39,806 nucleotides of DNA, taken from positions 1 to 39,806 of the forward strand of contig JAQGDQ010001463.1 in NCBI GenBank assembly GCA_030141605.1, in the 5' to 3' direction. This document shows positions 16,701 to 38,200 of this stretch, piece by piece. The translations under genes and the position numbers were made by a program. The stretch comes from Tubiluchus corallicola (taxonomy: Eukaryota; Animalia; Priapulida). The notes beneath the pieces are model-generated. The model saw only the letters and a program-made list of their open reading frames with translations, searched no databases and was not told the origin of the DNA. Position 1 is the first letter of the stretch. Each line of letters begins with the position of its first letter.

Positions 16701-19700
16701 TCTTGCAGATTTCTAGAGATGCTCAGTGTCGATGGCGCTGGTCTGCAACATTTTCTTGCAGATTTGTAGAGATGCTCAGTGTCGAGGGCCCTGGTCTGCA
16801 ACATTTTCTTGCAGATTTGTAGAGATGCTCAGTGTCGAGGGCCCTGGTCTGCAACATTTTCTTGCAGATTTGTAGAGATGCTCAGTGTCGAGGGCCCTGG
16901 TCTGCAACATTTTCTTGCAGATTTGTAGAGATGCTCAGTGTCGAGGGCCCTGGTCTGCAACATTTTCTTGCCGGTTTCTAGAGATGCTCAGTGTCGAGGG
17001 CCCTGGTCTGCAACATTTTCTTGCCGGTTTCTAGAGATGCTCAGTGTCGAGGGCCCTGGTCTGCAACATTTTCTTGCCGGTTTCTAGAGATGCTCAGTGT
17101 CGAGGGCCCTGGCCTGCAACATTTTCTTGCAGGTTTCTAGAGATGCGGCAGTACACTGAACACTTGTGGGGATTTTGTGATCATTATTTCACAGCTGCGG
17201 CTTCAAAGCAGAGATGTGCAGTTACACCTTTTCCTTTATCAGCAACCGCAAAATCCGCAACTGTACATATCCGAATGTGGAAAATCCTCGGATTTATGTG
17301 AAATCTGAAAATCCACGACTCCGCAAGAACAGTAGGCAAAAACTAGACTTGCTAGGTGTGCCCTACTGCTAAAACCTTTTTCGTACAAAGCTAAGAGTGA
17401 TAATCGATAATCAATAATAAATCACTAGCCACACCCGGCAAAAGAATTTTGCTTGTAAACCAACAATGACAACTCCTACCACACAATCTACATATATCAC
17501 CCCATCATATCATATCAATCACACCAAGACAGAAACTATAATTATCATGACAAAACAAAAAATTGTACAGAGATTGGCTAGTGTTTTTATGCAAGCAAGT
17601 AAAAACAAGTAAGTGGCTTTGTACACTGCAATTTCGCGTAAAATCCGCAATCTGCATACAATTCACTATCAGCAATCCATGAAACTGCTAAATTAGCACG
17701 GATTCCGCAACCGCATGACAGCAAATCTGCTATCCATGCATCTCTGCTTCAAAAGTGAAATGTTAATTTTTTATGGCAGATTCTTGTTTCCTTTTAATAT
17801 TTCAGCAAAAAACATGCACGTCTGATCACTCAGTAGCCACGTCCATGCCGTCATGCACGTCTGATCACTCAGTAGCCACATCCATGCCGTCATGCACGTC
17901 TGATCACTCAGTAGCCACGTCCATGCCGTCATGCACGTCTGATCACTCAGTAGCCACGTCCATGCCGTCATGCACGTCTGATCACTCAGTAGCCACGTCC
18001 ATGCCGTCATGCACGTCTGATCACTCAGTAGCCACGTCCATGCCGTCATGCACGTCTGATCACTCAGTAGCCACGTCCATGCCGTCATGCACGTCTGATC
18101 ACTCAGTAGCCACGTCCATGCCGTCATGCATGTCTGATCACTCAGTAGCCACGTCCATGCCGTCATGCACGTCTGATCACTCAGTAGCCATGTCCATGCC
18201 GTCACGCACGTCTGATCACTCAGTAGCCACGTCCATGCCGTCATGCACGTCTGATCACTCAGTAGCCACGTCCATGCCGTCATGCACGTCTGATCACTCA
18301 GTAGCCACGTCCATGCCGTCATGCACGTCTGATCACTCAGTAGCCACGTCCATGCCGCCATGCACGTCTGATCACTTAGTAGCCACGTCCATGCCGTCAT
18401 GCACGTCTGATCACTCAGTAACCACGTCCATGCCGTCATGCACGTCTGATCACTCAGTAGCCACGTCCATGCCGTCATGCACGTCTGATCACTCAGTAGC
18501 CACGTCCATGCCGTCATGTACGTCTGATCACTCAGTAGCCACATCCATGCCATCACTAACAGGACCCACGGGAACTTGTAGATCAGGTCAATGCTGATCT
18601 CAGGGACCTACAGGTTTGCAGACCCAAAAAAGGGCCTGCACATTTCTGTGCTTCAAGTATCAAATAAGGAACTTGTTTGTGCAGCCAAGTACATAGTATA
18701 ATACATAGTTAAACATAAAATACAAGTCAATGTAAAGATTTGTATCCTGCAAATACCTGATCATGAGTGATACATCAGAGCCCAATGTTTGTAAAATCCC
18801 AGCAAGTTCAACGGCAATATAACCGGCGCCGACAACAACCGTTTTCTTCGGCAGTTCTTCCAATTCAAAGAAACCATCGCTACTGATTCCGTACTCTGCT
18901 CCAGGTACCGAAACAGGAGAGGGAAATCCACCCGTAGCAACGAGCACATGCTGCGCAGAGTACCGCTCTCCATTAACCTCAATGCTGCCATCATCAGTGA
19001 ACTCCGCCCAACCCGGTATGAATTCCACGTGGCTTTTCTGAAGGTTTGCTAGGTAGATTGCATTTAACCTTTTCACGTACTCGTCACGTGCTTTCTTTAT
19101 AGCTGCCCAGTTGAAACTGTTTACAGTAACATCAAATCCATAATCTTTATGGTCATGTATCATTTCTGCATGAACTGCAGTGTTGAACATAACTTTTTTT
19201 GGCACACATCCCACGTTGACACAAGTGCCACCTAGGCGCCCTCTCTCTACCAGGCCTACTCTTGCGCCATATTCTGCGGCACGACGAGCGCTGGCTATAC
19301 CACCTATTAACAGAAATCAAACTGAATAACACAACACCAATATAACAGCCACAGTGACTGTAGCCTAATTTTTTTGTATGTTTCAAGCTAAACTAGAAAA
19401 TAAAGAAAAAATGATAAAACACAATTTTAATTTACTGACTGAAAAGCATTTTTGAAGTGCAAATTTAACCTAATCCTAATAGCTGAAAGGTGCAATTTAC
19501 TAAACCCTGTTATATGAATATAAGGGGGCAACGATGGTCTGTATATACAAAGCAGACAAAAGTTAACTAATTTGAGTAAAGGAAAGCTGTGTTAAATAGT
19601 GATTTTGATTAAATTGGTGATTAAATTATTAAATTAATAATTCAAGATTAAATGCTTAACAATGCAAGATTAAACTATCGTTGTGAACAGAAGCCTAGTT

Positions 19701-20715
19701 AGGTGTGGCATCATGTGACCAGATGATGTTCGACCGGCTGACTCAGAAGTAAAGATTGATGATGTAATCCTTATGCGAAGAAGCTCATGGCGCATTAGGT
19801 AGTTAGACAAAAGTGTTTTGAGACCCGCACCTCGAGGACATTAGGAACTGACTTGAAGACAGAGGGCTGGCATTACTATCCTCTTATATTTACCGTGTTG
19901 AGTTTAATATTCAATAAATGTGTAGTTTATTAAATAAAGTCTTGATAGTTTGCCATGCCCATCGTGACTACCTCACACGCCACACAATAAACAACAATAA
20001 TCAGCAAGCAGCTTAACCGCAAGAATCAATTAACTTTAACCAATTATTTTACTATTTGGTTAAAGTACAAAAAAACACCCTTCACAAATACAGCTTTAAT
20101 AAATTGTCTAAAAATTTTATATCACCTACATAATGTCCTATTGCAAAAAGGGCATGCGTTAGCAATAACGCTGAATAAAACTTGTACATTTAAACTCCCA
20201 TGACAACTGTTTAAAAAAATAATCAGAGCATTCATAACACACTCTTCGCTAGCTAAACAAAAGCGTAAATTGCTATATCTTGCCAATATGATCAATAGTG
20301 TATTTTTTGGTGAACAAGCGGTACACATTGGGATGGCGGTGCACAAATATTTTAAATCACTAAGAATTTTCATTTGCAATAACATAAGTTTTTCAAACAG
20401 CTAAGCAAAATGCTAAGTAATATTGCTTTGCATGGAAAGTTTTTTGGGGCATACTTTAAAATTCCCTTTTCTTCCACTTCAATATAATTAGTAAAGGTAT
20501 CATGTCCTTTTCACTAATTTTAACATACATATTTAACATAATATAACATAATTTTAACATCAATTACACCTTTAACTGTGGATGTTTCGGTTTATTCGAA
20601 ACTGAAAAGTACATTGATTTCCAAATCACGTAACTTTGTTTGCAAAAAGGCTACAATTACCTGATCCACCTCCTATAACAAGATAATCAAACGTCTTCTT
20701 CACAACTGGCGCCAT
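10731..20715 (-). CDS. GSR: Glutathione-disulfide reductase, 452 aa; exons 20715-20661, 19303-18757, 12096-11882, 11272-10731
   Basis: The spliced frame (55+547+215+542=1359 nt, phases 1,2,1) gives [20 protein letters not shown] (FAD binding), [13 protein letters not shown] (redox disulfide), [14 protein letters not shown] (NADPH binding) and C-terminal [12 protein letters not shown]. There is no C-terminal GCUG/CC extension, so it is GR rather than thioredoxin reductase. Confidence 0.97.
12510..12810. mobile_element. Probable degraded hAT-type MITE remnant
   Basis: Clusters of (t)tcgaa(t) subterminal-like motifs at 12528-12570 and 12699-12806. Ends and TSD are not resolved. Confidence 0.3.
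13336..13977. mobile_element. pogo/Tigger-type MITE (642 bp)
   Basis: TIRs CAGTAAACTCTGCATAACTCA and (reverse complement) CAGTAAACTCCGCGTAACTCA match at 19/21; TA on the left flank; gagtta(g/t)gcga subrepeats near the right end. Confidence 0.85.
14144..14152 (+). promoter_or_regulatory. Candidate TATA box of the nested LRR gene
   Basis: TATATATAA lies ~80 nt upstream of the ATG at 14233. The AT-rich background weakens the call. Confidence 0.4.
14233..15870 (+). CDS. Intronless secreted or GPI-type leucine-rich repeat protein (545 aa) with two tandem LRR modules, nested antisense in a GSR intron
   Basis: Long non-repetitive ORF with an N-terminal hydrophobic signal ([15 protein letters not shown]). 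Two Cys-capped LRR modules carry LRRCT motifs [11 protein letters not shown] and [11 protein letters not shown], with a Thr-rich linker and a small-residue plus hydrophobic C-terminal tail. Confidence 0.88.
   Translation: MMLQNLYAAKFGIIFIMLITPGLGRRGDPFSQSCSIERSQGNEITCGGAVGNTNKATMEELKKAIISIINAKVKVITVSKYTDSALPLDFLQGTEVSQIELRRTRNLQRIEEHFISATGVTSFKIFDANGLTFVHNQAFTNLNMLMSIEISYCRNLKQLHLYLHNSPKFRRLDIIDTGITTMDMPEFQSETIPFENLIIRIYGNPLVCDCRTVWMKKIQIRNRENKLRCKELPNSRKKYPATISRHTLKDFCPSAVLTTKALTTLKSTEVSTIETTTENELFKKAESLGCSFMFDTLTCGSNRMDLGFSKLGEISKSLPDAADIRLIIEILFYRDLQLPQEFLKGKHVEMLVVLNGHINFLGQNDIHGSIVNFRMENMKQLSYIHRNAFQQMESLQTIAFIDCNALIIANFDLSNNPSISFIRFIGTKISSMTMPVLHPSVNPSTVVFKLLRSQLTCDCTATWTKETNWSKSFVDCYEPQISNEQLKLSDFNCDRTRVLHVSAQSASTATTGNAGNLFLKVLCLELSLTCKNMFLMYNYFKAVSV
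16071..17146. repeat. Minisatellite, 53-bp unit (agagatgctcagtgtcgagggccctggtctgcaacattttcttgcagatttgt), ~20 copies
   Basis: Direct tandem repetition; variant units are clustered at both ends. Confidence 0.97.
17209..17746. mobile_element. hAT-superfamily MITE (538 bp)
   Basis: 8-bp TIR CAGAGATG...CATCTCTG; flanking 8-mers cttcaaag / cttcaaaa form a 7/8 TSD; subterminal (aaa)tccgcaa repeats at both ends. Confidence 0.8.
17813..18554. repeat. Minisatellite, 39-bp unit (cacgtctgatcactcagtagccacgtccatgccgtcatg), 19 copies, intronic
   Basis: Near-perfect tandem units with no spacers, ending ~200 bp from the GSR splice donor at 18756. Confidence 0.97.
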
Positions 20716-20724
20716 AGAACGAAA

Positions 20725-20739
20725 AAAATGCTGACTCAT
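20725..20739 (-). promoter_or_regulatory. Consensus antioxidant response element (Nrf2/CncC-small Maf site)
   Basis: The minus strand reads ATGAGTCAGCA-TTTT, matching RTGA(G/C)nnnGCA-wwww, about 10-25 nt upstream of the GSR MAPVV start codon. Confidence 0.6.
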
Positions 20740-20959
20740 ACGCGACAAAAATTGACTTTTATAGCGCTAAAATGAAACTTCAAAGAGGCATCAGTGCTAA
20801 GCAATTCTGCAACAACAAAGTACGCAAATACATGTAAGTGAATCGAATAAAAATAGAAAAAGACTCCGGACACTGTGTCCACTCGAAGGACATATAGTGG
20901 ACGCCTGTGACATCACTGCAGCATTCCCCAGTTAAGAAAGCAGGGAAATCACTTCATCT

Positions 20960-21060
20960 ATTACGCAGGTTGACGCGTGTCGACGTGGGCGCATCGGCTG
21001 CGCCAACGTCAATTGGCTGCGGGGCGCGCGCGTTCTATCAAATAATTATGGCTATTGGCT
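20960..21060 (-). promoter_or_regulatory. GC/CpG-rich GSR promoter or first-exon region
   Basis: Local CpG cluster with two minus-strand CCAAT boxes (~21012, ~21054) and a TGACGT motif (~21006-21011), directly upstream of GSR. Confidence 0.5.
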
Positions 21061-21399
21061 GCTATCACTTATCAGTATTATGAGAAAATGTAATATCCGC
21101 TATGCTTAAAGTGGTATTATGTGTACGTTATACCGCCATGTTTTATACTTGATCGGTGCGGAATTTTTACGAAAAAAGTGACCGGGTTGATATTTGGAAA
21201 GTTGAATTATAATCCTTGAATGAATTAGCAGATTTAACCAAATGAGACTTCTTTGCCGGTCAATATGTCATAATTCTTAATAAGATCTGCACGATGTTCC
21301 TAAATCAGCCTTTCTCCCGTACACGATGACGTAGTCCCCATGTAGGCTTTTGGAGATGACACCTGTTGTCATAAGTTCTTTTGTACGTAAATGCTGAAA

Positions 21400-21468
21400 A
21401 AGGAGAGAAAGCAAAAAGAGAGAGCAAAAGAGAGAGAGAGAGCCAGAGAGAGAGAAAGAGAGAAAGAT

Positions 21469-21540
<72 letters not shown>

Positions 21541-21626
21541 GCGAGAGAGAGAGAGAGAAAGAGAGAGTGCAAGAGAGAGAGCAAGAGGGAGAGAGAGAGA
21601 AAGAGAGAGCAAGAGAGAAAGAGGGA

Positions 21627-21673
<47 letters not shown>

Positions 21674-21730
21674 AGGGAGCAAGAGAGAAAGAGAGAGATA
21701 GAGAGAGTGGGGAGCGAGAGAGAGAGAGAT
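21400..21730. repeat. (GA)n-rich polypurine tract
   Basis: Interrupted GA microsatellite. Confidence 0.95.
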
Positions 21731-21874
21731 GTGTTTAGTGAATACTTGCATATTTATAAAAAAACATGCACTGAATATATATTTTTGCAAAGAATGTGAT
21801 AGAGTAACTGTGTGAATGGTGGTAAGTTTTCAAATTTTTCATAGCGTAATATATGTAAGGTTGGGAAATTATTA

Positions 21875-24800
21875 ATTAGTTTAGTTTAAACATAATTTAT
21901 TTAGGATTGGATCAGACAGTTTGTACAACATGATTTAAGATCCTCACCACAACAGACTTTATACACTATTTACAAGAACATTTACAGTAAGAATAGACTA
22001 TACTTAGTTTTTAGTATACTTTAGTATACTAAAGTTTTACTACAGTGATACATTAGACATTAGTAAAAAATGACGGTTAGTAAATATTAATGAACGATTA
22101 TTTAAGAATGATGCATTTTATATCAGATAGAAACTACTGGAAGCGTTTAGTACATAATATAAAGTCATATATACATTGGAATATTTTACAGTTAGTAACA
22201 TAGTTAAATTCATCTTTACCGAATAATAACAACTTCAACAGATCATTATTTCCTAAGACAGCTATATTAAGGTTTTCGGGCAAAAGTATTGCATGTAATT
22301 TATCAAACATAACTACCCTAGCTAGTTGATGCAATGGGCAGTGCAACAAAAAGTGTTCAACAGACTCAAATAGAAATCCACAGTTACAATTCGGCAATAT
22401 TGGATGACCGTTATTATCTTTACAGCCTTTAGAGAAAAGGTCATAGTTTAGCTGAGAAAATCCGATTCTCATACGCGTATGATGCACTGATATTGGAGGT
22501 TTGCCAAATGAAAAATGTTTCTTACGCAACGAAAAACTTAAATGAGATTTGAGCTCTTGTTTGAATTGTGAAATGGATGTAATTTCACGAATGTTCTGTG
22601 GTAAGTTGTTCCACATGTTAATGGTCGATATGAAAAACGATTTTTCTCAGCTAACAGAACGGCAATTAAAATTTCTGTATTTAGTACCACTGCGTATATA
22701 ATAGGGGGTAACTTCGTTTACCTTTGGCGGCAGAATTGCACTTAAATAGTGGGGCACTAAGTCATTGATTATTTTGAAAAAAAGACATAAGCGATGATAA
22801 TGGAAGCGTGTCACTAATTTAGTGAAGCCGCTATCAGAAAAGATACTTGCAGGGGAAGATCGAAACATAGCGCCAGAACAGATTCTAGCAGCAGTTAGCT
22901 GAATATTTTCTAACAAACGTATACGGTTTTCACTGCATCTTGACCATACTACGTTACCATATTCGATGGCAGGGAGAATAGTCGTAATGAATAATCGTTC
23001 CCGCGTAGCTCTGGGCATATTAACTGACACGCATCGAAAGTTGTTTAGCTTTAGATTTGCTTTGTCTACCATTTTTGAGACGTGATAGTTCCAGTTCAGG
23101 TCAGATGTAAGATGAATACCTAAATGTTTGTGAACATTTACAGTTTTCAGTGGAGTATTAGATAAATACAGAGTAGGATATTGAGCAGCATTGGATTTAC
23201 GGAAGAAAAGCATGACTTCGGTCTTATTAGGATTAAATTTAACCAACCAACGTTTGGCCCAGTTTTCAATTATTCTGAGATCTGCCTTTAAGCGATTTGC
23301 TGATGTATATGGGTCATCCTTAAGCAAATCCATTAAAACCGTAACGTCTGCAAAAAGGCGAATATCAGATTGAATGTCTTCTGTTATATCATTAACATAC
23401 ACTAGAAATAGAAGGGGACCTAAGATAGAACCTTGGGGGACGCCAGATAAAAGTGACTTCGCATCAGATGTATTACCGTTTAGCGTTACTCTTTGTGTTT
23501 GGTTTCGAAGGTAAGATGATAGCCAAGACAGAAGTTGGCCACTTACTCCATACTGCTTTAATTTGAATATCAAGCCTACATGCCACACCTTATCAAAAGC
23601 TTTACTGATGTCCAGAAAAACGCTACAGATTTCAGCACCGTCGTCTAAACTTGTATACAAATTGTGAACGATTGAAACTAGCTGGTTGATGGTGCTATCG
23701 TTTGATTTGAACCCGGAGTTCTTTTCCGTCAAAAAGTTATTATCAATAGTAAAGTAGTTATACATCTGATTAAAGACAACGCGTTCTAGAATCTTGGACA
23801 TACATGAAAGTAGCGCCACGGGTCTGTAGTTCGAAACAAGCTGTCTATCTCCGCCTTTGTGTATGGGGCAGACATTTGCAACTTTCCACAAGCTAGGAAA
23901 ATGACCTGACTGTAATGAGAAGTTAAACAATCGGGTTAATGGGCTTGATAATGAATCTGCACAAAGCTTAAGTACTTTGTTGCTTATTCCATCAGGACCT
24001 ACAGATTTGCTCGTATTGACGTTATTTAATAGTGTTTTCACTAAATCTTCGTATACAGTAATGTGAGACATGTATGTATCAGTCTTCGATACGAATCTGG
24101 GTAATGAAGCATTTGAAATGTTCAAACGGCACTGCTGGGCAAAGTAATTGTTAAATGCATTGCACTTGGAAATCGCATCACTTATGACAACACCAGCTTC
24201 ATTTATAATGGGAGGAATAAATAGTCACAAGTATTTTTGTAAAAACTTTTAGTAATTTCCCACCAGACTTTAGGGCATGTTTCAGGATTCAATAGCTTCT
24301 CGTTCAGTTTGTCTGAATAGTCACGTTTGGCTTTTTTAACAGCATTGTTGTACTTATTTCTAATAGTAGTATAGGACTGCCACGAAGCATTCGTCCTGTT
24401 TAATTTATAATTTCTGTGCGCCTTTTCTTTTTGTACTCTAAGCTTTCGAACGTAAGTATTCATCCAAGGCTTATCGCGTGGGCGTATTGTTACAATTTGA
24501 TTAGGCACACAAGAATCAATCATTTTCACTAGATTGTCAACAAATAATTGAAAAACAATATCAACAGATTCATTTGAAAACACAGCCTCCCAATTTGCAG
24601 CAGAGATTTGTTGATTTAATGCTGGCCAATCTGATAAATTATAATTATATACCTTTCTTTTGAAAGCATGACGTACTGGAATTTTGACACAAATTTTCCC
24701 AAAAATAGGGTTATGATCGCATGTAAAGATTTGTGGAAGCACACCGTAGTTAGTAAATAATCTAGGTGAGTCTGTGATAATCAAATCCAGTACAGACGTT

Positions 24801-24935
24801 GACGTACTAGTTACTCGAGTGGGATCAGTAATTAACTGGAACAATTGATTTTGTACAACAAAATTATTTAATTTAGGGCCCATTGGATTTTCGTTTAGCT
24901 CTGCCTGGTCCCAGGCGTTACATTTGGAAGTTATC
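21875..24935 (-). mobile_element. 5'-truncated non-LTR retrotransposon (CR1/L2-group-like); ORF2 pseudogene
   Basis: Three successive ORF pieces: endonuclease end (PTR..LDLIIT..DHNPI), RT (FLDISKAFDKV, GVPQGSILGPLLF, LFADV) and a C-terminal CxC..HxxxxC knuckle (CNCGFLFESVEHFLLHCP). Frameshifts lie near 24200 and 22650. The 3' UTR has AATAAA (~21897-21902) and a short AAACT-type tail. Confidence 0.93.
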
Positions 24936-25216
24936 AAAAGTATAGACGCAGTACAATGACAGTCGCCCATTGTTTTCAAGACTTGCGTTTGCGTTTCCAA
25001 GACTAGGCGAATTTGGAAGGCTTTGCGCAAAGCAGCGTCATTCTGGTTTATACTTTCAGCGTGTAAACTTGAATGTGAAGCGAAGAGAGAGATCTGCAAT
25101 TTTTATTAGCAGTGATATTTTAATTAGCAGACACTTTATGAACTATTGATTTATTTTAAAGATTAGGAGGACTGAACACAGTTGTAGGTAGGCAGTATTA
25201 TGAGTCATTTTTAAAA

Positions 25217-25234
25217 AGAGGGAGAGGGAGAAAG

Positions 25235-25298
<64 letters not shown>

Positions 25299-25649
25299 GC
25301 AGAAAGAGAGGGAGAGAGAGACAGAGAGCAAGAGAGAGAGAGAGAGAGAGAAAGAGAGCGAGAGAGAGACAAAGAGAGAAAGAGCGAGAGAGAGAGGAGA
25401 GACAGAGCAAGAAAGAGAGAGAGAGAGCGAGAGAGAGAGGAGAGAGAAAGCAAGAGAGGAGAGAGAAAGCAAGAGAGAGAGAAAGAGAGAGGAGAGACAG
25501 AGCAAGAGCAAGAGAGAGAGGGAGAGAGAAAGCAAGAGAGAGAGGGAGGGAGAGAGAAAGAGAGAGGATGGAGAAAGCAAGAGAGAGAGAGCGAAGAGGG
25601 AGAGAGAGAGAGAAAGAGAGAGAGTAAGAGAGAGAGGAGAGAGAAAGCA

Positions 25650-25683
<34 letters not shown>

Positions 25684-26170
25684 GAGAGAGAAAGCAAGAG
25701 AGAGAGAGACAGAGAGCAAGGAGCGAGAGAAAGAGGAGAGAAGGAGCGAAAAAGAGGGAGAGAGAAAGCAAGAGAGAGAGGGGGAGAGAGGGCAAGATAG
25801 ATAGATAGAGAGAGAAAAAGAGCAAGAGAGAGAGAGAGAAAAAGAGAGAGAGAGTGTGAGAAAAAGAAGTGAGAGAGGAGAGAGAAAGCAAGAGAGAGAG
25901 AGCAAAAGAGAGGGAGAGAGAGCAAGAGAGAGAGATAGAGAGAGGAGAGAGAAAGCAAGAGAGAGAGCGAGAAGAGTGAGAGAGAGAGGCAGAGAGAGAG
26001 AGAGAGGCAGAGAGAGAAAGAGAGCGGAGAGAGAGGGAGAGAGCGAAAAACGGGAATAATTTTAATTTATTAATTAAAGAGAGAAAAAGAGCGAGAGAAA
26101 AAGCAAGAGAGAGAGAAAGAGAGAGAGAGCAAAAAAGAGGGAGAGAGAAAGAGAGAGAGGCAGAGCGCAA
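25217..26170. repeat. ~950-bp degenerate (GA)n polypurine tract
   Basis: GA microsatellite with recurring aaagcaagagag interruptions. Confidence 0.95.
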
Positions 26171-26329
26171 GGGAGCGATTATTTTATTAATATAAGTTGG
26201 CTAAGGAAAAGCAGTGCAGAAAAGTAACCAAGTAAAAGACAATTTTTGATAAAAACAAAAAAAATCTCAGTAACCCTAACTTTTTTTTGATCATTGTTCA
26301 TTGATCCGCAACTGTGACAGTGCATGAGT

Positions 26330-26738
26330 AGCAGTACCCGCAACGACTACAGCAGCAGGAAGTGCGACAGGAAAAGCAACGACAACTATAGCAACAACGA
26401 CAATATCAAAAACAAGAATAACAGCAGCAGCATAGCAACAGCAGCCGCAGCACCATCATCAGCAACAGAAACATTAGCAGCCACAATGACGACGACAATA
26501 ACTGCAGTTAAAACAACAACAGCACTAGCAACAGCAACAGCAACAACATCGTCAAGAATGACAATGACAAGAAAACACCAGAAGCAACAATGGCAACGAC
26601 AGTACCACAAGCTATAAGAACAGCAGCAGTAGCAACAATAATCACAACTACAACAAAAGCCATGACAATCACAGCAGCTTTCAGAAACAACAACAAACAA
26701 CAACAACAACAACAAACAACAACAACAACTACTACTAG

Positions 26739-26807
<69 letters not shown>

Positions 26808-27350
26808 AGCGACAATCACGGCAACATTGACGACAATAACAACAAAAGTTGCAGCAGCAGCACCAACAGCAACTACAAAAATGGCAACAGCAACATCAAC
26901 ATTATCACCAGAAATGACAACAGTAGCAACAACACCATCATCAATGACAATGACAAGAACAACATCAGTAGCAACAAGAGCAACAACAGTACCACATGCT
27001 ACAAAAACAGCAGTAGTAGCAACAATAATGACAACTACAACAAAAACAACCATGGTCACAGCATCAGCAACAACAACAGCAGCAGCAACAACATCAACAA
27101 CGAAGTAGCCACAGGAGCAGTAACAGCAACAACAATGATAACTGCAACAACAATAAACAAAACTACAATTACAACAACTGTGGCAACAACAGCAACAGCA
27201 ACAATAATAACAAAAGTGGCAGCAGCACCATTAACAACATCAGTAGCAACAACCACGGCAATAGTGTAAACAGCACCACAGTGTGGCACCAACAATGATA
27301 ACTTCAACAACAATAACCAAATTATTGTTATTATAATAACCAAATTATTA
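26330..27350. repeat. CAA/GCA/ACT trinucleotide-rich low-complexity region with a pure (ACT)n core at ~26728-26806
   Basis: Seen directly; contains a diverged internal duplication (~26530-26680 vs ~26920-27065). Confidence 0.9.
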
Positions 27351-28065
27351 TTATAACCAAGCTACAGCTTCGACGACGGCACCATTAGCGGCGATCTATA
27401 CATCAAACGAAAGGTCTCGATCTAGTGTCGTGCCATTGGGGATTTATTTTCGAATCGGGCGCACCGGGACGAACGGGGGGCAAAAAACCATCAAAAATCG
27501 CCATTTTTGGACGTTTTTTGCAAAACTTATACCTCTTATTTCTGAAGAACGGGAATGGGTCAGGGGCGGTGCTGGCCATGGGTAGATAGCCCGTTCAGCG
27601 GCGGGTGTAGTAGGCATATTTAGAATTTGTGAGAGGGCCACGGCGTCCCGCAACGGGAGCTTTCCCGGACCCAACTCGAAACTTTGGCCAAACAGCATGC
27701 GGAAAAAACGTTCTAGCGGCGGCTGGTGGGACTCTTGGACGGAGATATATGGCTCTTTAGAAAGAGGAGGAACAGTGCTACACGATGATGTGGGCTATAT
27801 TTTAAGACACGTCCACCTAAAGCAGTACCGACCAGTTAATTAGATGTTCTATTTTTGGCAATTTTTGCTTAGAAAACTGCTGACGCAAAGCCATTGTTCC
27901 GACGTCATCCATTATACTCTGCCTATAACCTTATAGCTTTAATTCAGTAAAAGCTGCCCCTGCTGGCTTTGTGTTAGGTAAGTAAACGAACACTAGGTAG
28001 AACGTTCGCGTATTTTTGATTATACGTGTATTTTTACGCAAAATTTTTTGCGGGGCCTTTGCTAG
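27345..28065 (+). mobile_element. Putative non-autonomous Helitron (3' end defined, 5' end uncertain)
   Basis: GC-richer block ending in hairpin CGCAAAA-TT-TTTTGCG (28037-28052), followed 9 nt later by CTAG|T (28062-28066), the canonical Helitron terminus. Confidence 0.55.
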
Positions 28066-30111
28066 TTATCTATTATATTTTGTATGTTGAATGTATATGT
28101 ATATTTTTACCTACAAATAGAAGTAAATAAATGACATAATAATAATTAAAAAATCCCCCCCTCTCTCTCTCTCCCTCCTCTCTCTGTCTCTCTCTCCTTC
28201 GCTCTCTCTCTCTCTGTCCATCCATCTCTTATAGGCATTGAATAACAGTGACGCATTTTACACTTCAGACATAAGAGAGCAATGGAGGAAAGTATTAGGA
28301 AGAAATTATGAGTGACGATGATATTGTATATATATATCACTGTTATTTTATTTATTTATGTATTAATTTGCATGGGTTGAGAGGAGGGGTTATAATTATT
28401 GTATATCTTATAATTATTGTATGTTATGTATTCTATGAACCTAGTTCGAAATAAAGAGTTAAATCAAATCAAATCATCCCTCTTTCTTTCTCTCTCTCCC
28501 CTTTTCTATCTGTCTCTCTCTTTCATTCTCCCGCCTTCCCTCTCCCCCATTTCCATTTCCACTCCACAATGCTTCCAAACAAGCAAACAAGTTTAATAAC
28601 ACGAGTATTTTTACATGTATACCCTGTGTACACTTTCTACTGCTAACAGGATACCGCTACATTTTGCACAAAACACAGATTGTGAAGCAGTAGCGCGAAC
28701 TGTTTACATTCATTTGTAAACATTAAACATGGGTACCTCCTCTGCGTTAGAAAATTTATGACTCACGGGCGATTGAGAAAACGCGGATTAGGAGCGGTTG
28801 GGGAAACATCGTGATGTGGGAAGGCGTGCAGCCAAAGCAAACACAATAATTCACTCGTGAATGAACAGTTATTTGTGAATAGTTAACTACAAAACATAGA
28901 AAAGTGTTAAACTGCACAAATGTTCACGTCGATTGTTATTCGATCATAGAATTTGCAAACGACAATGATTAGGACGGCAGCATAACACATGGACAATTAC
29001 TTTTAGAGAAGACAAGAAGTAAACCACAGCTTACGAGAAATCGGTATAAACGTGCAATAGATCTAAGCAATCACGTGATTTCATTCGTACTCGACTAGTT
29101 GTGTTTGTTTGTTTATGGGTGTAATATGGTGAACTAGAATGATAAGTAAACTGATTGCTCTTTGCAGGTACGTTTCGACGAATCGACAGGTAATATCATA
29201 AAAAAAACGTGCTAGTTCTCAAGACAGACGTGCTGATGAATCATCCATCTGATAAGAGAACCAGCATTTCATTAGAAACACTCAGGTTACAAACTTCCAA
29301 CTTTGGTAGGTCTACTCTTCGAGTGCTGCAGTATCTCGCGTTAGCCGTGTAGTCAATTACTCAGTTATACATACTTATATAGATCTTCATTTAGGTGATA
29401 ATTATCTCGTGAACTGGTTCCAGGTTCGGTGATCTAATCCCTTTTTTCTCATACTCTGTTAGCGCTTTCGTTGCTGAAAGGACGCAGCTAAGGGTCCAGC
29501 TGTGAGGTCTGATTTGCTAATTCAAGAAAACAAGTTGAAAGTGTTTCTTATTCTTACGTTACAGCCTCCAGTATAATATCGTACTTACAGATAATGTGAT
29601 AAATCCAGATCAACGTACTTTACATCCTAAAAACAACCGACCGTGGACAATCGCTGTTGGTCATGTGAAGTCAGAACCTGTGCATGGAATTGTTTGGAAT
29701 ACTTAGAACGGTTTGCTAGCTTGTATGTACAATTCTTGAACATTGCACTTTGCACGTGTTTGCATAGTGGCTTTTACGTTTGTTTAGTTAAACTTCATTG
29801 TGCGCTGTTTAGAGACGGTTACTACAGGCACTCCTTCTGTAGTAGTGACCCGTTAATCTAGTCACTCACTAGTTGTTATCCTTCTTTAAAGAGAGTGAAA
29901 ATAAGTACAATTTTATACTTTGTGGATTTCAGCGCTGTTATAAATCATGATGTTGTGAAGCAATCATGTTATAAATCAACCACTTCAAAATGAAATCAAG
30001 TAGAACGCCTACATTATTTTATAGGTTACGTAAACATTCCGCTTTGGTGAGCGCGCGTTGTTCCAGCCGACCAAGGAAAGACAGTTAATAAATGCGCTAG
30101 AATCTGGTAAA

Positions 30112-32264
30112 ATGGCTTCGAAATCAATGCTGTGTCAGAAGGTCCATATGCGAAGTGAAGCCGTGCGTCTTCATGCTGAGGGTATCTCAGACAGCTTGTT
30201 ATCTCAAGTGAGTAAAGTATTGCGTTTACTTGTCTTAATTGTTTTAGTTAGAACGTTTGATAGTAAATTTATTGTGCTTAGTAATTAGATTTCTACCTGC
30301 CCACTGTCCACAATAGACGCAACGGGAATTCAACAATAGCATTTAAATAAGCAAGTAGATTTTCTGCCATGCGTCTCGTAAATTTACATTCGAACATAGA
30401 AAAAGGAACAGTAACGTATTCAATTGACTCTCTAGAAGACATGAACTAAAGTAGACTCAGGCTATACATTTTGACACAATTTTCTGTCACAAGCAGAAAG
30501 ATCTGCATGAAAGTTAAAACAGAAAATTGCAGTGCAGCAAAGCAAACGTATGCAGTCAACCAGTATCCCAAACTTTTTTTGCTGGGAGGATCCACCAAGA
30601 AGACAACGATTTACTCATTATGCTGATTTATTTTTGTAATGCTTTTCGGACATTACTCCACCCTCTGATGCTGACCAGCCACGTGAAACTACATCAACAT
30701 TCTTTAAAAAACAAACTGCCAACCGGAAGGATGATTGCCGTGGGTGAAATACAATGGTACAATAAGAGGTGGTAGAATGCAAAGGATTTCAATAAAAAAT
30801 AGCTAATAACCAAAAGTAATATCAAAAAGGAAGCAAATATTTTTAACTGTCTATAAAGTGTATTACACATTTCAGATTGGATTTACTTCACATCTAGAGC
30901 AGAACGTATATCCAGGACTGAATGAGATAGAATCATTTCCTGTTGTACCTGATGTAAATGCTAATTGGACGGTATGAACACTTACCAGCATATCGTTAAT
31001 CGTATCATTCGTCATTCCAGTGGTAAGGTGAAGATCTGAGTGGTTACTGAGTACTTAGTGACCAAAGTTAAGCAACACCGAGGCAGGTCTGTGAATGGAT
31101 GGATGACTGCAAGGTTCAATAGTCATTCTAAACAGTTTCATCTGTTAATTTTTCCATGGATATTTAACTCACTGAAGGTTCTAGCACACACCTCTGGCCA
31201 AGACACTTCTGCCACTTCACTGTCTCAGCTGACAGTAATATTCTTGATAATGAAATAGGTTTTGGTCCCACCACAATCATGTACATTGAGCAGGCTTTGC
31301 TCTTATGTGCTGAGGCATTCCAAGCTCTCCAACACCATGATGCCAGTGGAAATATTGGAAAATTCTTACATGTGTTTCAATTTTCTTTGACTTTAACAGC
31401 AAGCATTATGCAAAATGCACTAGGGTTTACAATTTTCTGTTGCTCAGAGCTCAAGTAAAATCATGACATCTTCATGAGAGTTGATCACAACTTTTTATCA
31501 GAGCTGAAATAGATTAAGTCCATCACTCCACAATTAGCGCACATTTTAATGAAAGTGAGCGTGGAGCACACAGAACAACAGGAATGCTGCCTCAGTAGCT
31601 GGGGGTAAATCAAAAACTTTATTGGAACATTAGTAAGTGCTTGCGAAATCCTAATGTTTCCTCTCCTGTTTTAGCAAAGCAATATTGGCATAGTTTCCAG
31701 AATTGAGGCAAACTATACGTGATTAAGCTAACATATTATTAATGGCCCTAACTTTGCGCGCAAATAGAGAGCGACGGAACTCCAACAAAACATCACTGGC
31801 CAAAGATCAGAGGTCACTAACAAGCGGTCAGCTGTACTGATTGACCTTTTGTGAACATGTAAACAGTTTGGCTTTCAGAACAGGTACTTTGCCTTATACT
31901 TTATTTTTACACAAGCTGCACTGTTTCGCATTTCATTAAGATGTTCTACTTCTAGGTTTATGATTCACTCCTCCAAATCTATCAAGATCTGCTCAACATC
32001 ACTGAATTTGTCAAAGAATCATCTGGATACAACAAAAAGAGCGAACTTCAAAATTCTTTGCAAGATTTGACGATGCTTGTTCTTGTTTCATCCTACTCCA
32101 TGTCGCCAACTTACTTGGAGGAGCGACAAGCGAATGTGGCTCCATCTAGTCCAGATAATGCCTCGAATAGAGACTACAGAAATTACCAAATGATGAGAAA
32201 CATCATGGACCACATGCTGTTTGTGCAAAAAATCTATGCAAGGGTAAAAAACGAGGAGATATGA
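30112..32264 (+). CDS. Uncharacterised 166-aa all-alpha protein, candidate four-helix-bundle cytokine; exons 30112-30207, 30876-30971, 31956-32264
   Basis: aaaATGG start context; donors gtgagt and gtatga; acceptors tttcag and ttctag; both introns phase 0; continuous open frame; AATAAA downstream (~32396, ~32574). The product call is inferred from the helix/loop pattern only, and the true N-terminus is uncertain. Confidence 0.65.
31061..31110 (+). mobile_element. Degenerate 5S-rRNA-related SINE fragment
   Basis: aagttaagcaacaccgaggcaggtctgtgaatggatggatgact resembles the 5S internal control region (AAGCTAAGCA...GGTTAGTACTTGGATGGGAGAC). It is too short and diverged to be a 5S gene. Confidence 0.45.
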
Positions 32265-33686
32265 TGAACGGGCGAGGACCAGACGATCTTTCAAAGTGCG
32301 AAACCCTTTTACCTCAGAGTTAACAATGATCATCATTATCGTTGGCGCCATCAAAGGACAGCTGCATAAAGGGAAGCCAGCAATCACATAACAAATAATA
32401 AAATAAGTCAATGTGTTCTTACAGCCCCTCTCGAGAATACACGTTTCTGAAGATTTAGAAACTGTGTGCTTCCAAAAATGCTACTGTAAAGAAAGGGCGG
32501 AATTTGAAGGTATTTGATACTTTAAAGGGGAAGAAGCGGTGAAGGTCCGAGGTTTTTAAATTACCCTTTCTTTAATAAACAAAGCCGAAAAAGCGTGAGT
32601 AAAATGGGAAACATATTTATATGCAGAACACCGTACTTGCGTTTTAAATTGCTAAAAAAAGGAGATACAGTAAATTGAAATGCTAACATATATATCTTAC
32701 AATATTTACAAACACAAACAACATTAATAACAGTGCAACAAACAAACAAACAATATTAATTAACATGAGCATAAACATTGATCAAACTAATCTATTAGTA
32801 AACTGTCTAACGGGGGTATTGCATTGTGTGCTCTAAGACGCAGTATCTAGACATTACCAACGACTTAGTCTGACAGACGGCTTTAATAACATACGATATT
32901 CATAATATCTAAAAATAGGTTAGGTACAAGTTTAAGGTCACGTATGCTATGCAAGGTCAAAACTACCTATCAATGCGGCTTCAATGTGTTTAAACTCAGT
33001 TTTACACTTGCAACAGTCCAGCTACTCAATTTAAGTAAAAATTAACTGAGTTCATTTAATTGATAAGATTATCAGCCAGAATATCATACTATTACATTAT
33101 TGCATCATTCGCAAATGTGTACATTTCATTGTAAACATACAATACAATATACAATATATAGAAATACAATATACCATTTTCGTGTAGTTTTACTGTACTG
33201 TTTTGAAAATAGTTAGTATTTATTCCAAGAAAAGTAATATGGTACTTCTTAACTTAGACCGTACTATTTCACCAATCTTACCAAATCTTGGCAAAGCACT
33301 TTTTAAAGTCAAATTTCGATTAAAGATCCAATGAAATTCAAGGATAAAATAATCATAATAAGACAGAAGGAAAACAAAGGAAGTCTTTTTTCGACACAGG
33401 ATGGTTCACAGGTCAAGAAAATTGTCACCGTAATTCAGAAGTTTATAATTAGTCAAATTAAACTTTATGTTTGTATCGCAAAGTGTCAAAGCAAGACCAT
33501 TCTTCAAAAAACGTCAACCGTAATTTATGAGTTATAATCAATAAATAAAGCAGATCTTGTTTTTCACAAATTACATTAGGACAGCACAATTTGCACGAGA
33601 TTGAAAGTTTTGATGCTTTGTAATAGGCATGAATTAACTTCATAAAATATAAAAGTTTTGGCACTAGTAATCAGCAATTATTACAT

Positions 33687-36600
33687 TCACATAAAACAGT
33701 ATACTGGAAATAAGGGTACAGGTTTCACCAATTTGCAATTTCTTGTTCTAGACAAATTATCGCTGTTGAGAAATGAAAGCTTATTTGCTGTTTTCAAGCT
33801 CGGACTGCTGCCGGAAAACAGTAAACCTTCATCACTCAACGTTGAATAATGCCTTGCCTGGCTATCATCTAAACTGATGCCATAATCAGAATTGTTTAAA
33901 ACAGAACTGTGAATAGGAACCGGTTGTCGGTTATCTGAACAGAAATTAAAACTAGGAACCAGCTGTCGGTTATCTGAACAGAAATTAAAACTAGGAACCG
34001 GCTGTCGGTTATGTGAACAGAAATCAAAACTAGGAACCGGCTGTCGGTTATCTGAACAGAAATTAAAGCTAGGAACCGGCTGTCGGTTATCCGAACAGAA
34101 ATCAAAACTAGGAACCGGCTGTCGGTTATCTGAACAGAAATTAAAACTAGGAACCGGCTGTCGGTTATCTGAACAGAAATTAAAACTAGGAACCGGCTGT
34201 CGGTTATCTGAACAGAAATTAAAACTATGAGGGTTTCGATTACCGGAAGCAAAATAAGCTAAATTATCCTCCGACAGGCCAAGCAAATATTTAAAATCAT
34301 TCTTAGTTGAAAGTAAGAGATTTTGACAGCATCCAAGATTCTCTAGATAATGATAGCCAATCTCAAGATTCATAGGCCCTCTCCATATTTCTGCCGGATT
34401 ATACATAGCTCGCAAGCCTGAATAAGAATAAGAAGCGTTGCAAAAGCAGTCAACAGATGACAGCACCATCTGGAAAAAATAGAACAGTTAAGTCAGTATT
34501 TGAATATGTGACGGTGTTCATATTTTCCCACTTCTTGTACCATACTGTTTACACATTTGCGAAACTACTGAAATTTGAAGAAAATTTCATACAGCTAAAT
34601 ATACAACTTTTGTTGATTAAATCATAGGTCATATCATTCTCGCAAGTTACACTGCTCACCTTGCATCCTGCACTAACAGGTAAACGCTCAATTCTGCTGC
34701 CCATGATGCTCGCAGACGGCCTAACTGGTTCAGGTTTTGCAAGATAGTAATTTCCTAAAGGTAAAACAGTTTAGTATCAAAAAATTGAATCGTTACGTGG
34801 AAAAAACTATTCGAATAAATATATTTTTCTAGTCAGCAGTAGGCGCTCTTAGTCAGTTTAGAACAAACAACGGTGAAGTTCAACTTTTCTGTTCACTGTG
34901 CTGAATAACATGTTTTTAATGTGCTAGAAATGCCACTGGGTCATCATACTGTTATTTACTTAGTAATAATAGATACGTTATTTCATTAGCAGGTGTAAAA
35001 ATGAAGTAAATCCACAACATTTTTTATTGTCTTTAATATAAATTATAAAAATGATTGTGCAACGACTCACTGTGATTAGAGAAAAGCTTTAGACACTAAA
35101 TTAACACTGTAAGAGTGCTACATGTACAAAAGCATAAAAACAGAACTATATTAGCACTACTTTCATGACATCTCAAAATAACAAGCTTTAAACTCTCAAT
35201 TAATACCAAATTTCGGTTTAAGTTATAGTAACTTTATAAAAGCACTGATTTCAGCATACCTGCTATGAGAGGAGAATCAGAGGTTCCTGTGTAGTTTTCC
35301 ATTCCCATCACAGATGTCACTCTCATTTGCTTTCGCCACTTTGCTCTCCTATTACTAAACCAGATCTAAAAATAAATGTCTTAACTTTATTGAAATACAC
35401 TCGTGGAATTCAGGCATGCACTTAAAATTTGATATGCAGTCTAACTTTCTAAACCTCCCAACAACTGTAACCCCCCTTCAGTATTCAGCTTGTCCATAAA
35501 AAGAAATGATATTCACTCTGCACAATGCACTCTCTGTTTCTAAAAAAACCACTTGTATACACCGTGCAAGTGGTATATCTCAGAACCAAACTCTCAAAGT
35601 TCAGCATTGCTACCTCTAATTAGTACACAGATAGACAACAGCAATTGATCTAATGTTGTAACCAATATTTGTTTATCTGTTAGCAAACTGACTGTCTCGG
35701 AGACTTAGCTTTATACATTGGCTCAAGAACAAAATTCGTGAAATTGCTTCTAGCTTAGTAACTTGTGAATTTTGGGAACTAATTCTGCCAACTGTACGAG
35801 AAAGCTAGATCATGCTTTCAACAGACAGCTTGCAACAGGATTATAACACCACATGCTAAACTGCTGTAGTAATTTACTGCTAATTATACCATAATACCTG
35901 AACTCTCGTATCGGTAAGATTCAGGTTTTGAGAAAGTGCTTCTCTTATAGCGATGTCCGGATACGGCGTTTGTTTGAATGCTGCTTCTAAACTGCTCAGC
36001 TGTTGCAATGTGAATGATAGTCGTTTTCGTCTATGTTTGTTTTCCAAAAAAAGTTTTTCTCTGTTGCGCAATATGTGATTTACACCTACAGATGGCATAA
36101 ATGAGGTGTCTATTAGCTATGTAGAAAGCGATAAAATGCCGTACAGACACATACTAGAAGTTATAGCACACACGCTTGACTATAGTTACACCCATAACGA
36201 CTCGCAATGCGTCAATTTGATAAAACTTTACAAAACTGAATCAAACGTAACAATTTTGTAACATGACAGTTAAGCTAAGATTTTGAAAAATAGGGCATTT
36301 AAAGTAAAATCATATAGCTGTTCAGAGAAATTTTAAAAGTCAACAGAGCACACAGGTCAAACAAAACTGCACTGATGTGAGGCTAAGCTTCAGACTACAG
36401 CAGAACATGTGTCACTCAGAATTATGCACAAAATCATAAAGAGTGATAATCAAGTATAAAGTTCTGCTTTATAACAGAAGCAGAAAGGAAACCTTGATAA
36501 GTTCCAGTCACTGTCCCAACGAGATTGCCACTTTCTGTAGATGACGCCAGGGTTGTAACACAATCATCACTGTTAACCAGCGACTGATTACTGCTACTAC

Positions 36601-38200
36601 ACTCCTACAATAAAAAAGTGTAAGAATTCTGTAGCCCGTATTCATTTCTCAACAACATTTGTAACTTTAAACACAAAAAAATATTTTCTCACAGTCACAG
36701 TCACACTAAATTAACACAAGACATCAAAAGCATTATACTACTTCTCCCATTGTTTTAATGCGCTCACATATTTTTACTAATATTCACTTCATACGAAGCA
36801 GGAGTTACTTATTGGGCTTTCCTGGAAGTAAGTCTCTAAACTAAAAAAGGATCATAATAATTCTTGAAGAAGTTTATCTGAACAAACATGCATATAATGG
36901 AACAAAAGTAAGTTTAGAGAACGAAACCCCCGACAAAGTAAGGGTTCATTTCAATAAAGATACCCTGGGTCCAGTTTCGCAAAGCCGTCACTGACTTAAC
37001 GACATCATTATTAATAGTGAATTGAATGTAATAACGACATCGTTAACTTAGTGACGGCTTTGCGAAACCGTCCCCTGGTCAATATAGAATATCACTATCC
37101 AAGCATAAGCCAGGACAAATGACGTCCAAATTTGAGGAATTCACATTTTGCAAGTGAGACTCTCTCACATTGTCCTTTTGCAAATGCAGTGATCTATGCA
37201 TCAGTAATTTCATAATTTTCCAATTTCTGAATGCTTTTCCGCGCAATCTAATGGAACATACCTGGTGCTTGCTGAGTATCTTGCTCACACAACCATGTGA
37301 TACTCGGAGATGACGGCTTATTACGCAAGGTTTCACGCCACGCATGAACATGGCAATAATCTCGCGACGCAGCTCCGTCGGTAATGGTCTTCCGTTTTTG
37401 AACCTTCTACCAAGCTGATTGAGTTGATAAGTGCCTAAAGCAATAGAATAACCGTATTATTACACCTATTTGAATCTGTTATGAGCATATATTACACGAA
37501 GCCTAGTTCTTTAGCAAAAATTGTATAAACTGTTGTACTTGTGCAAGGACCTTTGTGTAACATTTGAGAAAAATCTACTTATTATGTTGAAAGATTCGCG
37601 TTGGATGCGAAGACCTCTAAAAATTGACAGCAAGTCAATTTTACAACAAAATTTGTGCCAAACAACTAATATTGTTAACAACTCACTATACAAAATATCT
37701 AAAAAATGGCAGACCATAGCTAGCAGGATACGTAAGCAAATTAAAGGACTAGGAAAAACGTATGATTTGAGTGGTTTGTCTGCAACTGGATGATTAACGA
37801 CAAAGTATCAATACAATGGACAATGTGATTAACATTAAACAGTTGTGCTGTCACATACTGATGTAAACTGCTTAACTCATTAAGTAGAATTTTCCCAAAC
37901 TTCCTTTCTTAAACATTCTGTTACCCATCATTTCTATCCCAGTTTGCTATACTGATTTCTTTTTTTAAATTGTCCAATAATCCATTGCTTTTTAATCATT
38001 TTTGGAATTCCACTGTGCATCAGGCACCTAACAAGTCCTTTCTTCTGGTTCCTGACTGCGATGATACATGCATGTTTCACATCATAACTTTTATTTAGTT
38101 ATCTTTTTGTAGGCATTTTAAAATTGATACGTAAAAAATTTCAGCAATGAAAAAATAATCATAACAACTTACCACTTTTCATTGGTGCACGATTTGGCAT
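33687..38200 (-). CDS. Divergent Pax (Pax3/7-like) transcription factor, ~494 aa; exons 38200-38173, 37434-37262, 36604-36493, 36085-35898, 35365-35260, 34754-34660, 34469-33687
   Basis: Phase-consistent splicing (1,0,1,0,1,0; 1485 nt). Paired PAI subdomain [15 protein letters not shown]...[20 protein letters not shown]. Homeodomain [10 protein letters not shown]...YPDI...RVQ|[13 protein letters not shown] has Ser50 and the usual paired-class intron before WF. PCVISR and YPDI point to the Pax3/7 group. Confidence 0.88.
33915..34227 (-). repeat. Coding minisatellite, 39-bp unit x8 ([13 protein letters not shown]), in the last Pax exon
   Basis: Tandem units lie in frame within exon 34469-33687. 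Confidence 0.92.
36968..37074. mobile_element. PIF/Harbinger-like MITE (107 bp) in a Pax intron
   Basis: 25-bp TIRs with core GTTTCGCAAAGCCGTCACT and 3 mismatches near the termini, flanked by a 3-bp CTG duplication (36965-67, 37075-77). Confidence 0.75.

What the first reader, a model, noticed from the sequence alone, without database searches (positions are those of the whole stretch)
30112..32264. Hidden 3-exon gene resembling an invertebrate long-chain helical cytokine (possible JAK/STAT ligand), apparently leaderless
Seen: three exons, only partly covered by the ORF track, splice through two phase-0 introns into 166 aa. The pattern is helix A (MLCQKVHMRSEAVRLHAEGISDSLLSQ), a 32-aa Pro-containing loop exon, helix B (VYDSLLQIYQDLLNITEFVKES), a short SGYN turn, helix C (KSELQNSLQDLTMLVLVSSYSM), a ~20-aa Pro/Ser loop and helix D (NRDYRNYQMMRNIMDHMLFVQKIYARVK). 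All four helices show 3/4-residue hydrophobic periodicity. Established: long AB, short BC and long CD loops, this size and phase-0 introns typify class I helical cytokines (IL-6/LIF/CNTF/leptin, fly Upd). CNTF and cardiotrophin-1 lack signal peptides, and such ligands are hard to find by BLAST in invertebrates. Inference: this may be an undescribed cytokine. No signal peptide was found; an in-frame TAA at 30031 closes the frame unless the AG at 30066 is used as an acceptor.
Basis: partly seen in the sequence, partly recalled or inferred. Interest (0 to 1): 0.8.

Follow-up and report, generated by a model that had tools for sequence, protein, structure and literature searches.

The report
Leaderless IL-6-type cytokine candidate in worm
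A three-exon reading frame in what is likely a marine worm related to priapulids encodes a 166-residue protein with one 36%-identical unnamed relative; it is predicted to be an interleukin-6/CNTF-type signalling protein that appears to lack a secretion signal, and would be a candidate for the cytokine ligands reported missing outside chordates and insects.

Summary
The gene model holds: exons 30112-30207, 30876-30971 and 31956-32264, with two GT-AG phase-0 introns, give 166 aa. A search with exon 3 alone found one unnamed homolog whose N-terminus also matches exon 2 (36% identity over 130 columns), which independently supports junction 2. In a second DNA data set, 4 of 5 coding differences are synonymous. 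Exon 1 has weaker support. ESM Atlas neighbours of both proteins are mostly class I helical-cytokine clusters (CNTF, cardiotrophin-2, IL-11, IL-6, LIF, GH), at lead-level scores. The four-helix fold is not confirmed: only fragments lacking helix A could be modelled. Only helix B is significantly amphipathic. No convincing signal exon was found in 10.6 kb upstream, but a conserved glycosylation sequon keeps normal secretion open. A neighbouring gene groups with Priapulus. Verdict: very likely a real gene, probably (about 0.75) a long-chain helical cytokine; receptor and release route are inferred. The scan has already noted similar candidates in octopus, acorn worm and feather star.

The parts
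30112..30207 (+). Coding exon 1 (32 codons): start Met and predicted helix A; holds the only Cys (residue 8); ends on Gln at a phase-0 donor
   Evidence: Sequence; donor ranking and codon usage; X1 differences: 1 synonymous, 1 Lys to Arg. Not covered by the homolog.
30208..30875 (+). Intron 1, 668 nt, GT..AG, phase 0, after predicted helix A
   Evidence: Sequence; no spliced read available
30876..30971 (+). Coding exon 2 (32 codons): long Pro-containing AB loop with conserved YPGL, FP..P and Trp; sequon NWT
   Evidence: 10 of 21 identical to P0122 residues 1-21; shuffle test; modelled as non-helical in the homolog (low confidence)
30972..31955 (+). Intron 2, 984 nt, GT..AG, phase 0, just before predicted helix B
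   Evidence: Sequence; homolog protein is continuous across this point
31956..32264 (+). Coding exon 3 (102 codons and stop): predicted helices B, C, D with a short BC turn and a long CD loop; most conserved block at the CD-loop end and helix D start (14 of 22 identical)
   Evidence: 3 of 3 X1 differences synonymous
30034..30111 (+). In-frame open stretch upstream of the ATG (26 codons, not hydrophobic): 5' UTR, or an N-terminal extension entered through the AG at 30066
   Evidence: coding-like codon score +0.175, reached by 1.7% of overlapping background windows; the one X1 difference here (30093) would be non-synonymous in this frame and removes a 2-codon upstream ATG frame (sequence)
29939..29975 (+). 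Two TATAAA boxes (29939, 29970) in a short direct repeat: candidate core promoter about 140-170 nt before the ATG
   Evidence: Pattern scan, sequence; function inferred, chance rate not tested
29139..29189 (+). Small ATG-led frame with donors at 29168 and 29190: best nearby candidate for an upstream exon, but with only 5 consecutive apolar residues, too short for a signal peptide core
   Evidence: unverified
32397..32402 (+). AATAAA 133 nt after the stop: candidate polyadenylation signal
   Evidence: Pattern scan; inferred

Best explanation
This is a three-exon reading frame for a 166-residue protein that is likely a class I long-chain helical cytokine of the gp130/IL-6-CNTF kind, probably made without a signal peptide, and predicted to be released on cell damage or by an unconventional route and to activate JAK/STAT through a gp130/Domeless-type receptor. 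Shown: the splice signals, the frame, a homolog across junction 2, mostly synonymous variation. Predicted: helices B, C, D with long-short-long loops. Inferred: helix A completing an up-up-down-down bundle; the conserved CD-loop-end/helix-D-start block (with Tyr138 and Tyr141) forming a site-III-like receptor surface; leaderless release; the receptor. My odds: functional gene 0.93, helical-cytokine fold 0.75, leaderless given that fold 0.6, gp130/Dome-type receptor given that fold 0.7.
For: Homolog spanning exons 2 and 3. 4 of 5 coding differences synonymous. ESM Atlas: for exon 3 the top cluster scores 0.90 with 204 shared features (Hormone_1 in 13% of members), the second is cardiotrophin-2-like (0.88), and 9 of the 10 best family-bearing hits share a family or clan; for the homolog, 10 of 10, best score 0.82. 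The homolog model gives loop 1-20, helix 21-48, 5-residue turn, helix 54-84, loop 85-98, helix 99-126 (pLDDT 55). Conservation peaks at the CD-loop end and helix D start, 14 of 22, against 4 of 22 in helix C; site 3 of IL-6-type cytokines includes this segment (PMC11039321, passages). The size and a ~32-codon loop exon between phase-0 introns match introns 2 and 3 of IL-6/IL-11/G-CSF/GH genes (phases and positions recalled; the five-exon conserved layout of IL-6 read in PMC13081863). No signal-peptide-like model stood out among 27 one-exon and 9 nearby two-exon upstream models printed; TATA boxes and an A(-3)/G(+4) ATG context fit a start at 30112. CNTF lacks a signal peptide (PMC11039321). 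A Dome/gp130-type receptor predates the protostome-deuterostome split (PMC1963337, passages).
Against: Atlas scores are lead-level: recognition 2225 and 1509 are below the 2300 mark, the cytokine Pfam families sit on 10-32% of cluster members (leptin cluster 90%), the third-ranked exon-3 cluster is named DUF2935, and the tool notes that a third of shuffled proteins also get ten of ten same-clan hits. Only helix B is significantly amphipathic in the window protein; helix A is not. Exon 1 has no homolog support. Against leaderless: three N-glycosylation sequons (62, 78, 132), with the one at 132 conserved in the homolog, and coding-like codon usage upstream of the ATG. The site-III Trp described for IL-6 (PMC7378365) and its four Cys are absent. 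There is no intron between helices C and D, unlike IL-6 genes.
Confidence: 0.45

Rival explanations
1. Same cytokine fold, but conventionally secreted: an unrecognised upstream exon supplies a signal peptide through the AG at 30066 (or 30075, 30084, 30100), and the protein is N-glycosylated.
For: Conserved NAS sequon and further sequons in both proteins; open, coding-like frame upstream of the ATG; most family members, and the scan's octopus and acorn-worm candidates, are described as secreted (unchecked notes).
Against: The most hydrophobic upstream model starts at 23468, on the antisense strand of a LINE remnant; the nearest (29139) has a 5-residue apolar run. The conserved Ser may instead be a helix-D N-cap (S-x-x-D; inference). 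Three sequons is near the roughly 2 expected from 13 Asn and 25 Ser/Thr in 166 aa. The scan used a crude donor matrix and could miss weak sites.
Confidence: 0.25
2. A helical cytokine that signals through a short homodimeric receptor (CRLF3 or GH/PRL-receptor type), acting as a hormone or cell-protective factor rather than a gp130/Dome ligand.
For: Hormone_1 (GH/PRL) is the family on the top exon-3 cluster; CRLF3 is present across eumetazoans and had no known ligand as of 2021 (PMC8063046, passages).
Against: The strongest conservation is at the segment used for site 3, an interaction described as particular to gp130-family complexes (PMC7378365); no GH-type disulfides (one Cys here, none in the homolog fragment).
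Confidence: 0.12
3. A lineage-restricted intracellular helical-bundle protein unrelated to cytokines; the resemblance comes from generic amphipathic helices.
For: No signal peptide; Atlas recognition below its mark; weak periodicity in helices A, C and D.
Against: Two proteins 36% identical point separately to the same cytokine clusters; the loop-helix layout and intron positions fit the cytokine plan.
Confidence: 0.15
4. Exons 2 and 3 are real, but exon 1 is wrong or the gene is not expressed.
For: No homolog covers exon 1.
Against: Best open phase-0 donor upstream of exon 2 and codon-usage drop after it; intact frame with mostly synonymous variation.
Confidence: 0.06

Closest known systems
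Vertebrate CNTF / cardiotrophin-1 / cardiotrophin-2 / CLCF1 (gp130-LIFR cytokines)
   Same: Size; no signal peptide (CNTF, PMC11039321); Atlas clusters with CNTF and cardiotrophin-2 labels rank 2 and 8 for exon 3; a phase-0 intron after a Gln ending helix A, and a lone Cys near the start of helix A as in CNTF (both recalled).
   Different: An extra phase-0 intron before helix B, which these genes lack (recalled); no Pfam CNTF/PRF match for exon 3 or the homolog; N-glycosylation sequons present.
Vertebrate IL-6 / IL-11 / G-CSF
   Same: A loop exon of about 30-40 codons between phase-0 introns (recalled); IL11, IL6 and GCSF-labelled Atlas clusters at 0.82-0.84.
   Different: Three coding exons rather than five (PMC13081863); no signal peptide; no four-Cys pattern; no site-III Trp.
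Drosophila Unpaired 1-3 and Aedes Upd-like (Domeless ligands)
   Same: Proposed role as a protostome JAK/STAT ligand.
   Different: Aedes Upd-like has a signal peptide and an Unpaired domain (10.1101/2025.09.21.677592, passages); no Unpaired family appeared in the Pfam scans or the listed Atlas rows.
Amphioxus GH-like type-I helical cytokine (208 aa)
   Same: Invertebrate class I helical cytokine with low identity to vertebrate members (PMC9010856, passages).

Membership tests
Class I long-chain helical cytokine | Four-helix up-up-down-down bundle | tested here: inconclusive
   Only fragments without helix A could be modelled (pLDDT 60 and 55); their fold searches are uninformative.
Class I long-chain helical cytokine | Long AB loop, short BC turn, long CD loop, helices of 20-30 residues | tested here: met
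   Homolog model for the AB loop through helix D (low confidence); the exon-3 model has the same three helices plus a short CD-loop helix. Helix A not modelled in context.
Class I long-chain helical cytokine | Length of about 150-280 aa | tested here: met
   166 aa; range from PMC13081863.
Class I long-chain helical cytokine | Sequence or profile similarity to a cytokine family | tested here: inconclusive
   No cytokine Pfam or PDB-sequence hit for exon pieces or the homolog, which is usual for this group; language-model neighbours are cytokine clusters at lead-level scores. The whole spliced protein was not scanned.
Class I long-chain helical cytokine | Phase-0 introns after helix A and before helix B | tested here: met
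   the vertebrate phases and positions are recalled, not retrieved.
Class I long-chain helical cytokine | Binds a class I cytokine receptor and activates JAK/STAT | not testable with these tools
   No genome is held, so the species' receptors could not be found.
IL-6 proper | Signal peptide, five exons, two to four conserved Cys, site-III Trp | tested here: not met
   Three coding exons, one Cys, no Trp near helix D, no signal peptide found; criteria from PMC13081863 and PMC7378365.
CNTF / cardiotrophin-1 type leaderless cytokines | No signal peptide | tested here: inconclusive
   None at the ATG or in upstream exon models; the transcript's 5' end is unknown.
CNTF / cardiotrophin-1 type leaderless cytokines | Orthology by phylogeny or synteny | not testable with these tools
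   No alignable vertebrate sequence was retrievable; neighbours are glutathione reductase and a paired-box gene.
Unpaired | Pfam Unpaired domain with signal peptide | tested here: inconclusive
   Not listed in Pfam scans of the pieces; the whole protein was not scanned.
Class II helical cytokines (IFN / IL-10) | Signal peptide, five helices, four phase-0 introns | tested here: not met
   Two introns, four predicted helices, no signal peptide found; criteria from 10.64898/2026.05.30.728932 section 5.

The most novel reading that the evidence does not exclude
An early-branching ecdysozoan (priapulid-like) keeps a leaderless, CNTF/cardiotrophin-like damage-released cytokine with two vertebrate-type intron positions. 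Long-chain gp130-family cytokines, their intron code and possibly leaderless release would then date to the last common bilaterian ancestor, and have been missed because the genes are unannotated and published structure screens filter on a signal peptide.
Probability: 0.33. Interest if true: 0.85.

Novelty: new member of a known kind. Interest (0 to 1): 0.6.

Why it matters
A 2026 survey finds IL-6 receptor-like proteins, JAK and STAT in invertebrates but IL-6-family ligands only in vertebrates, apart from insect Upd (PMC13203501, passages). A review of annelids and bivalves lists no class I helical cytokine in the passages read (PMC9756803), and CRLF3 had no known ligand (PMC8063046). A concrete protostome candidate makes the missing-ligand question testable. 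Two recent structure-guided screens used a signal peptide as a criterion (PMC13081863; 10.64898/2026.05.30.728932), so a leaderless, unannotated gene like this would be filtered out. Together with the scan's unchecked octopus, acorn-worm and feather-star candidates, it suggests these cytokines are widespread in bilaterians.

Full report
Observation. Splicing 30112-30207, 30876-30971 and 31956-32264 gives 501 nt and an open 166-aa frame; both introns are GT..AG and phase 0. The ATG has A at -3 and G at +4, two TATAAA boxes lie at 29939 and 29970, and an AATAAA lies at 32397. The frame is open upstream to a TAA at 30031.

Is it a gene? An exhaustive HMMER search with exon 3 alone returned 3 proteins at E 0.001 or better; two were repeat-driven and rejected, and one, P0122 (133 aa, unnamed, from a 1,047-nt Logan contig), is a true relative. 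Its first 21 residues, which were not in the query, match exon 2 (10 of 21), and none of 10,000 exon-2 shuffles scored as high. The spliced protein aligns to it over 130 columns at 36% identity with one 1-residue gap at junction 2. A second DNA data set (run X1) covers all 501 coding bases and lists five differences: four synonymous and one Lys to Arg, with P 0.008-0.028 under neutral expectation for transition biases of 1-8; its only listed indel in 29900-32480 is a 6-nt deletion just past the stop. The sample is small, two of the five differences lie on a low-depth contig, and one difference on the contig that spans exon 2 is not listed by place. Exon 1 is not covered by P0122, which probably starts at an internal Met. 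It rests on having the longest open phase-0 frame of 7 candidate donors in 28300-30820, and on codon usage that turns non-coding right after its donor. No RNA data were available.

Host. The neighbouring glutathione reductase has best hits across marine invertebrates. In a quick ML tree with 45 of the 120 listed hits (chosen for taxon spread), it pairs with Priapulus (SH-aLRT 95, 75% identity), next to Owenia (the careful search did not finish). Unchecked notes on the same genome also mention a gene layout shared with Priapulus. A priapulid or relative is likely but rests on one gene.

Fold. The ESM Atlas feature search places exon 3 next to clusters labelled Hormone_1, cardiotrophin-2-like, CNTF, IL-11, LIF/OSM, IL-6/G-CSF, leptin and IL-27 alpha (scores 0.90 to 0.80; 2 of the 10 rows shown are other things). 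P0122 goes to five of the same clusters (best score 0.82). By the tool's own calibration these are leads, and both recognition values fall below its mark; the agreement of two divergent proteins is what carries weight. AlphaFold could be run only on pieces lacking helix A. The homolog model shows an extended N-terminal loop, helix, 5-residue turn, helix, 14-residue loop, helix, the order expected for AB loop-B-C-CD loop-D, at low confidence. The topology itself remains untested.

Mechanism. Identity to the homolog is highest at the CD-loop end and helix D start (14 of 22), then the AB loop (10 of 22) and the rest of helix D (9 of 21), and lowest in helix C (4 of 22) and the first half of the CD loop (1 of 10). 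In IL-6-type cytokines, site 3 is built from the end of helix A with the start of the AB loop, the BC loop, and the CD-loop end with the start of helix D (PMC11039321, passages), and engages the Ig domain of gp130 (PMC7378365, passages). I infer a conserved site-III-like surface using Tyr138/Tyr141 and a gp130/Domeless-type receptor, a receptor form present before the protostome-deuterostome split (PMC1963337, passages). None of this was tested.

Leader. Scanning 19400-30030 (the whole gap to the divergently oriented glutathione reductase gene) gave 27 one-exon and 102 two-exon open models; I inspected the 15 most hydrophobic one-exon models and the 9 two-exon models starting after 27800, and none is a convincing signal peptide. 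The other 93 two-exon models were not inspected. Against leaderless: three sequons, one conserved, and a coding-like stretch before the ATG, though the conserved Ser may be a helix cap and GC-rich 5' UTRs can mimic coding usage. I put leaderless at about 0.6.

Comparison and novelty. It most likely works like a CNTF/cardiotrophin-type gp130-family cytokine. It fails the IL-6-proper criteria (exon number, Cys, Trp, signal peptide), and membership of the class I superfamily is probable but unproven. Its gene combines the intron after helix A with the intron before helix B and lacks the C-D intron (vertebrate positions recalled). Known invertebrate examples I read about are insect Upd and Aedes Upd-like, amphioxus GH-like and class II types; PMC13203501 reports IL-6 only in vertebrates. 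Papers were seen as passages, except section 5 of PMC13081863 and the abstract and section 5 of 10.64898/2026.05.30.728932; no supplements were read, and these could list invertebrate candidates. The scan has noted comparable candidates in octopus, acorn worm and feather star, none by sequence similarity to this one and none in this genome's notes. Verdict: new member of a known kind, interest 0.6; higher if the full-length fold and the leaderless start are confirmed.

Noticed in passing
window 10731-20739 (-): Glutathione reductase gene with exons matched at 20739-20659, 19316-18753, 12104-11877 and 11276-10734; used to place the host near Priapulus.
   Followed up: partly
window 14200-15870 (+): Single-exon 556-codon leucine-rich-repeat ORF with a signal-peptide-like start and two similar halves, nested on the opposite strand inside a glutathione reductase intron (LRR hits below Pfam cut-off).
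   Followed up: no
window 22134-25102 (-): Broken LINE-like reverse transcriptase/endonuclease reading frames, recognised by eye from the translations.
   Followed up: no
window 37079-37456 (-): Paired-box (PAX) exon, profile positions 4-64, E 1e-20; the gene points towards the cytokine candidate.
   Followed up: no
window 33687-34487 (-): 266-codon ORF holding 8.1 copies of a 39-nt repeat, 95% matched; may be an exon of the paired-box gene or a minisatellite.
   Followed up: no
window 944-1372 (-): Translation contains a cadherin-repeat-like stretch (recognised by eye, not tested), possibly an exon of a cadherin gene.
   Followed up: no
window 27800-28570 and 32456-33037: High-copy repeats by contig depth in run X1 flank the gene on both sides.
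   Followed up: no
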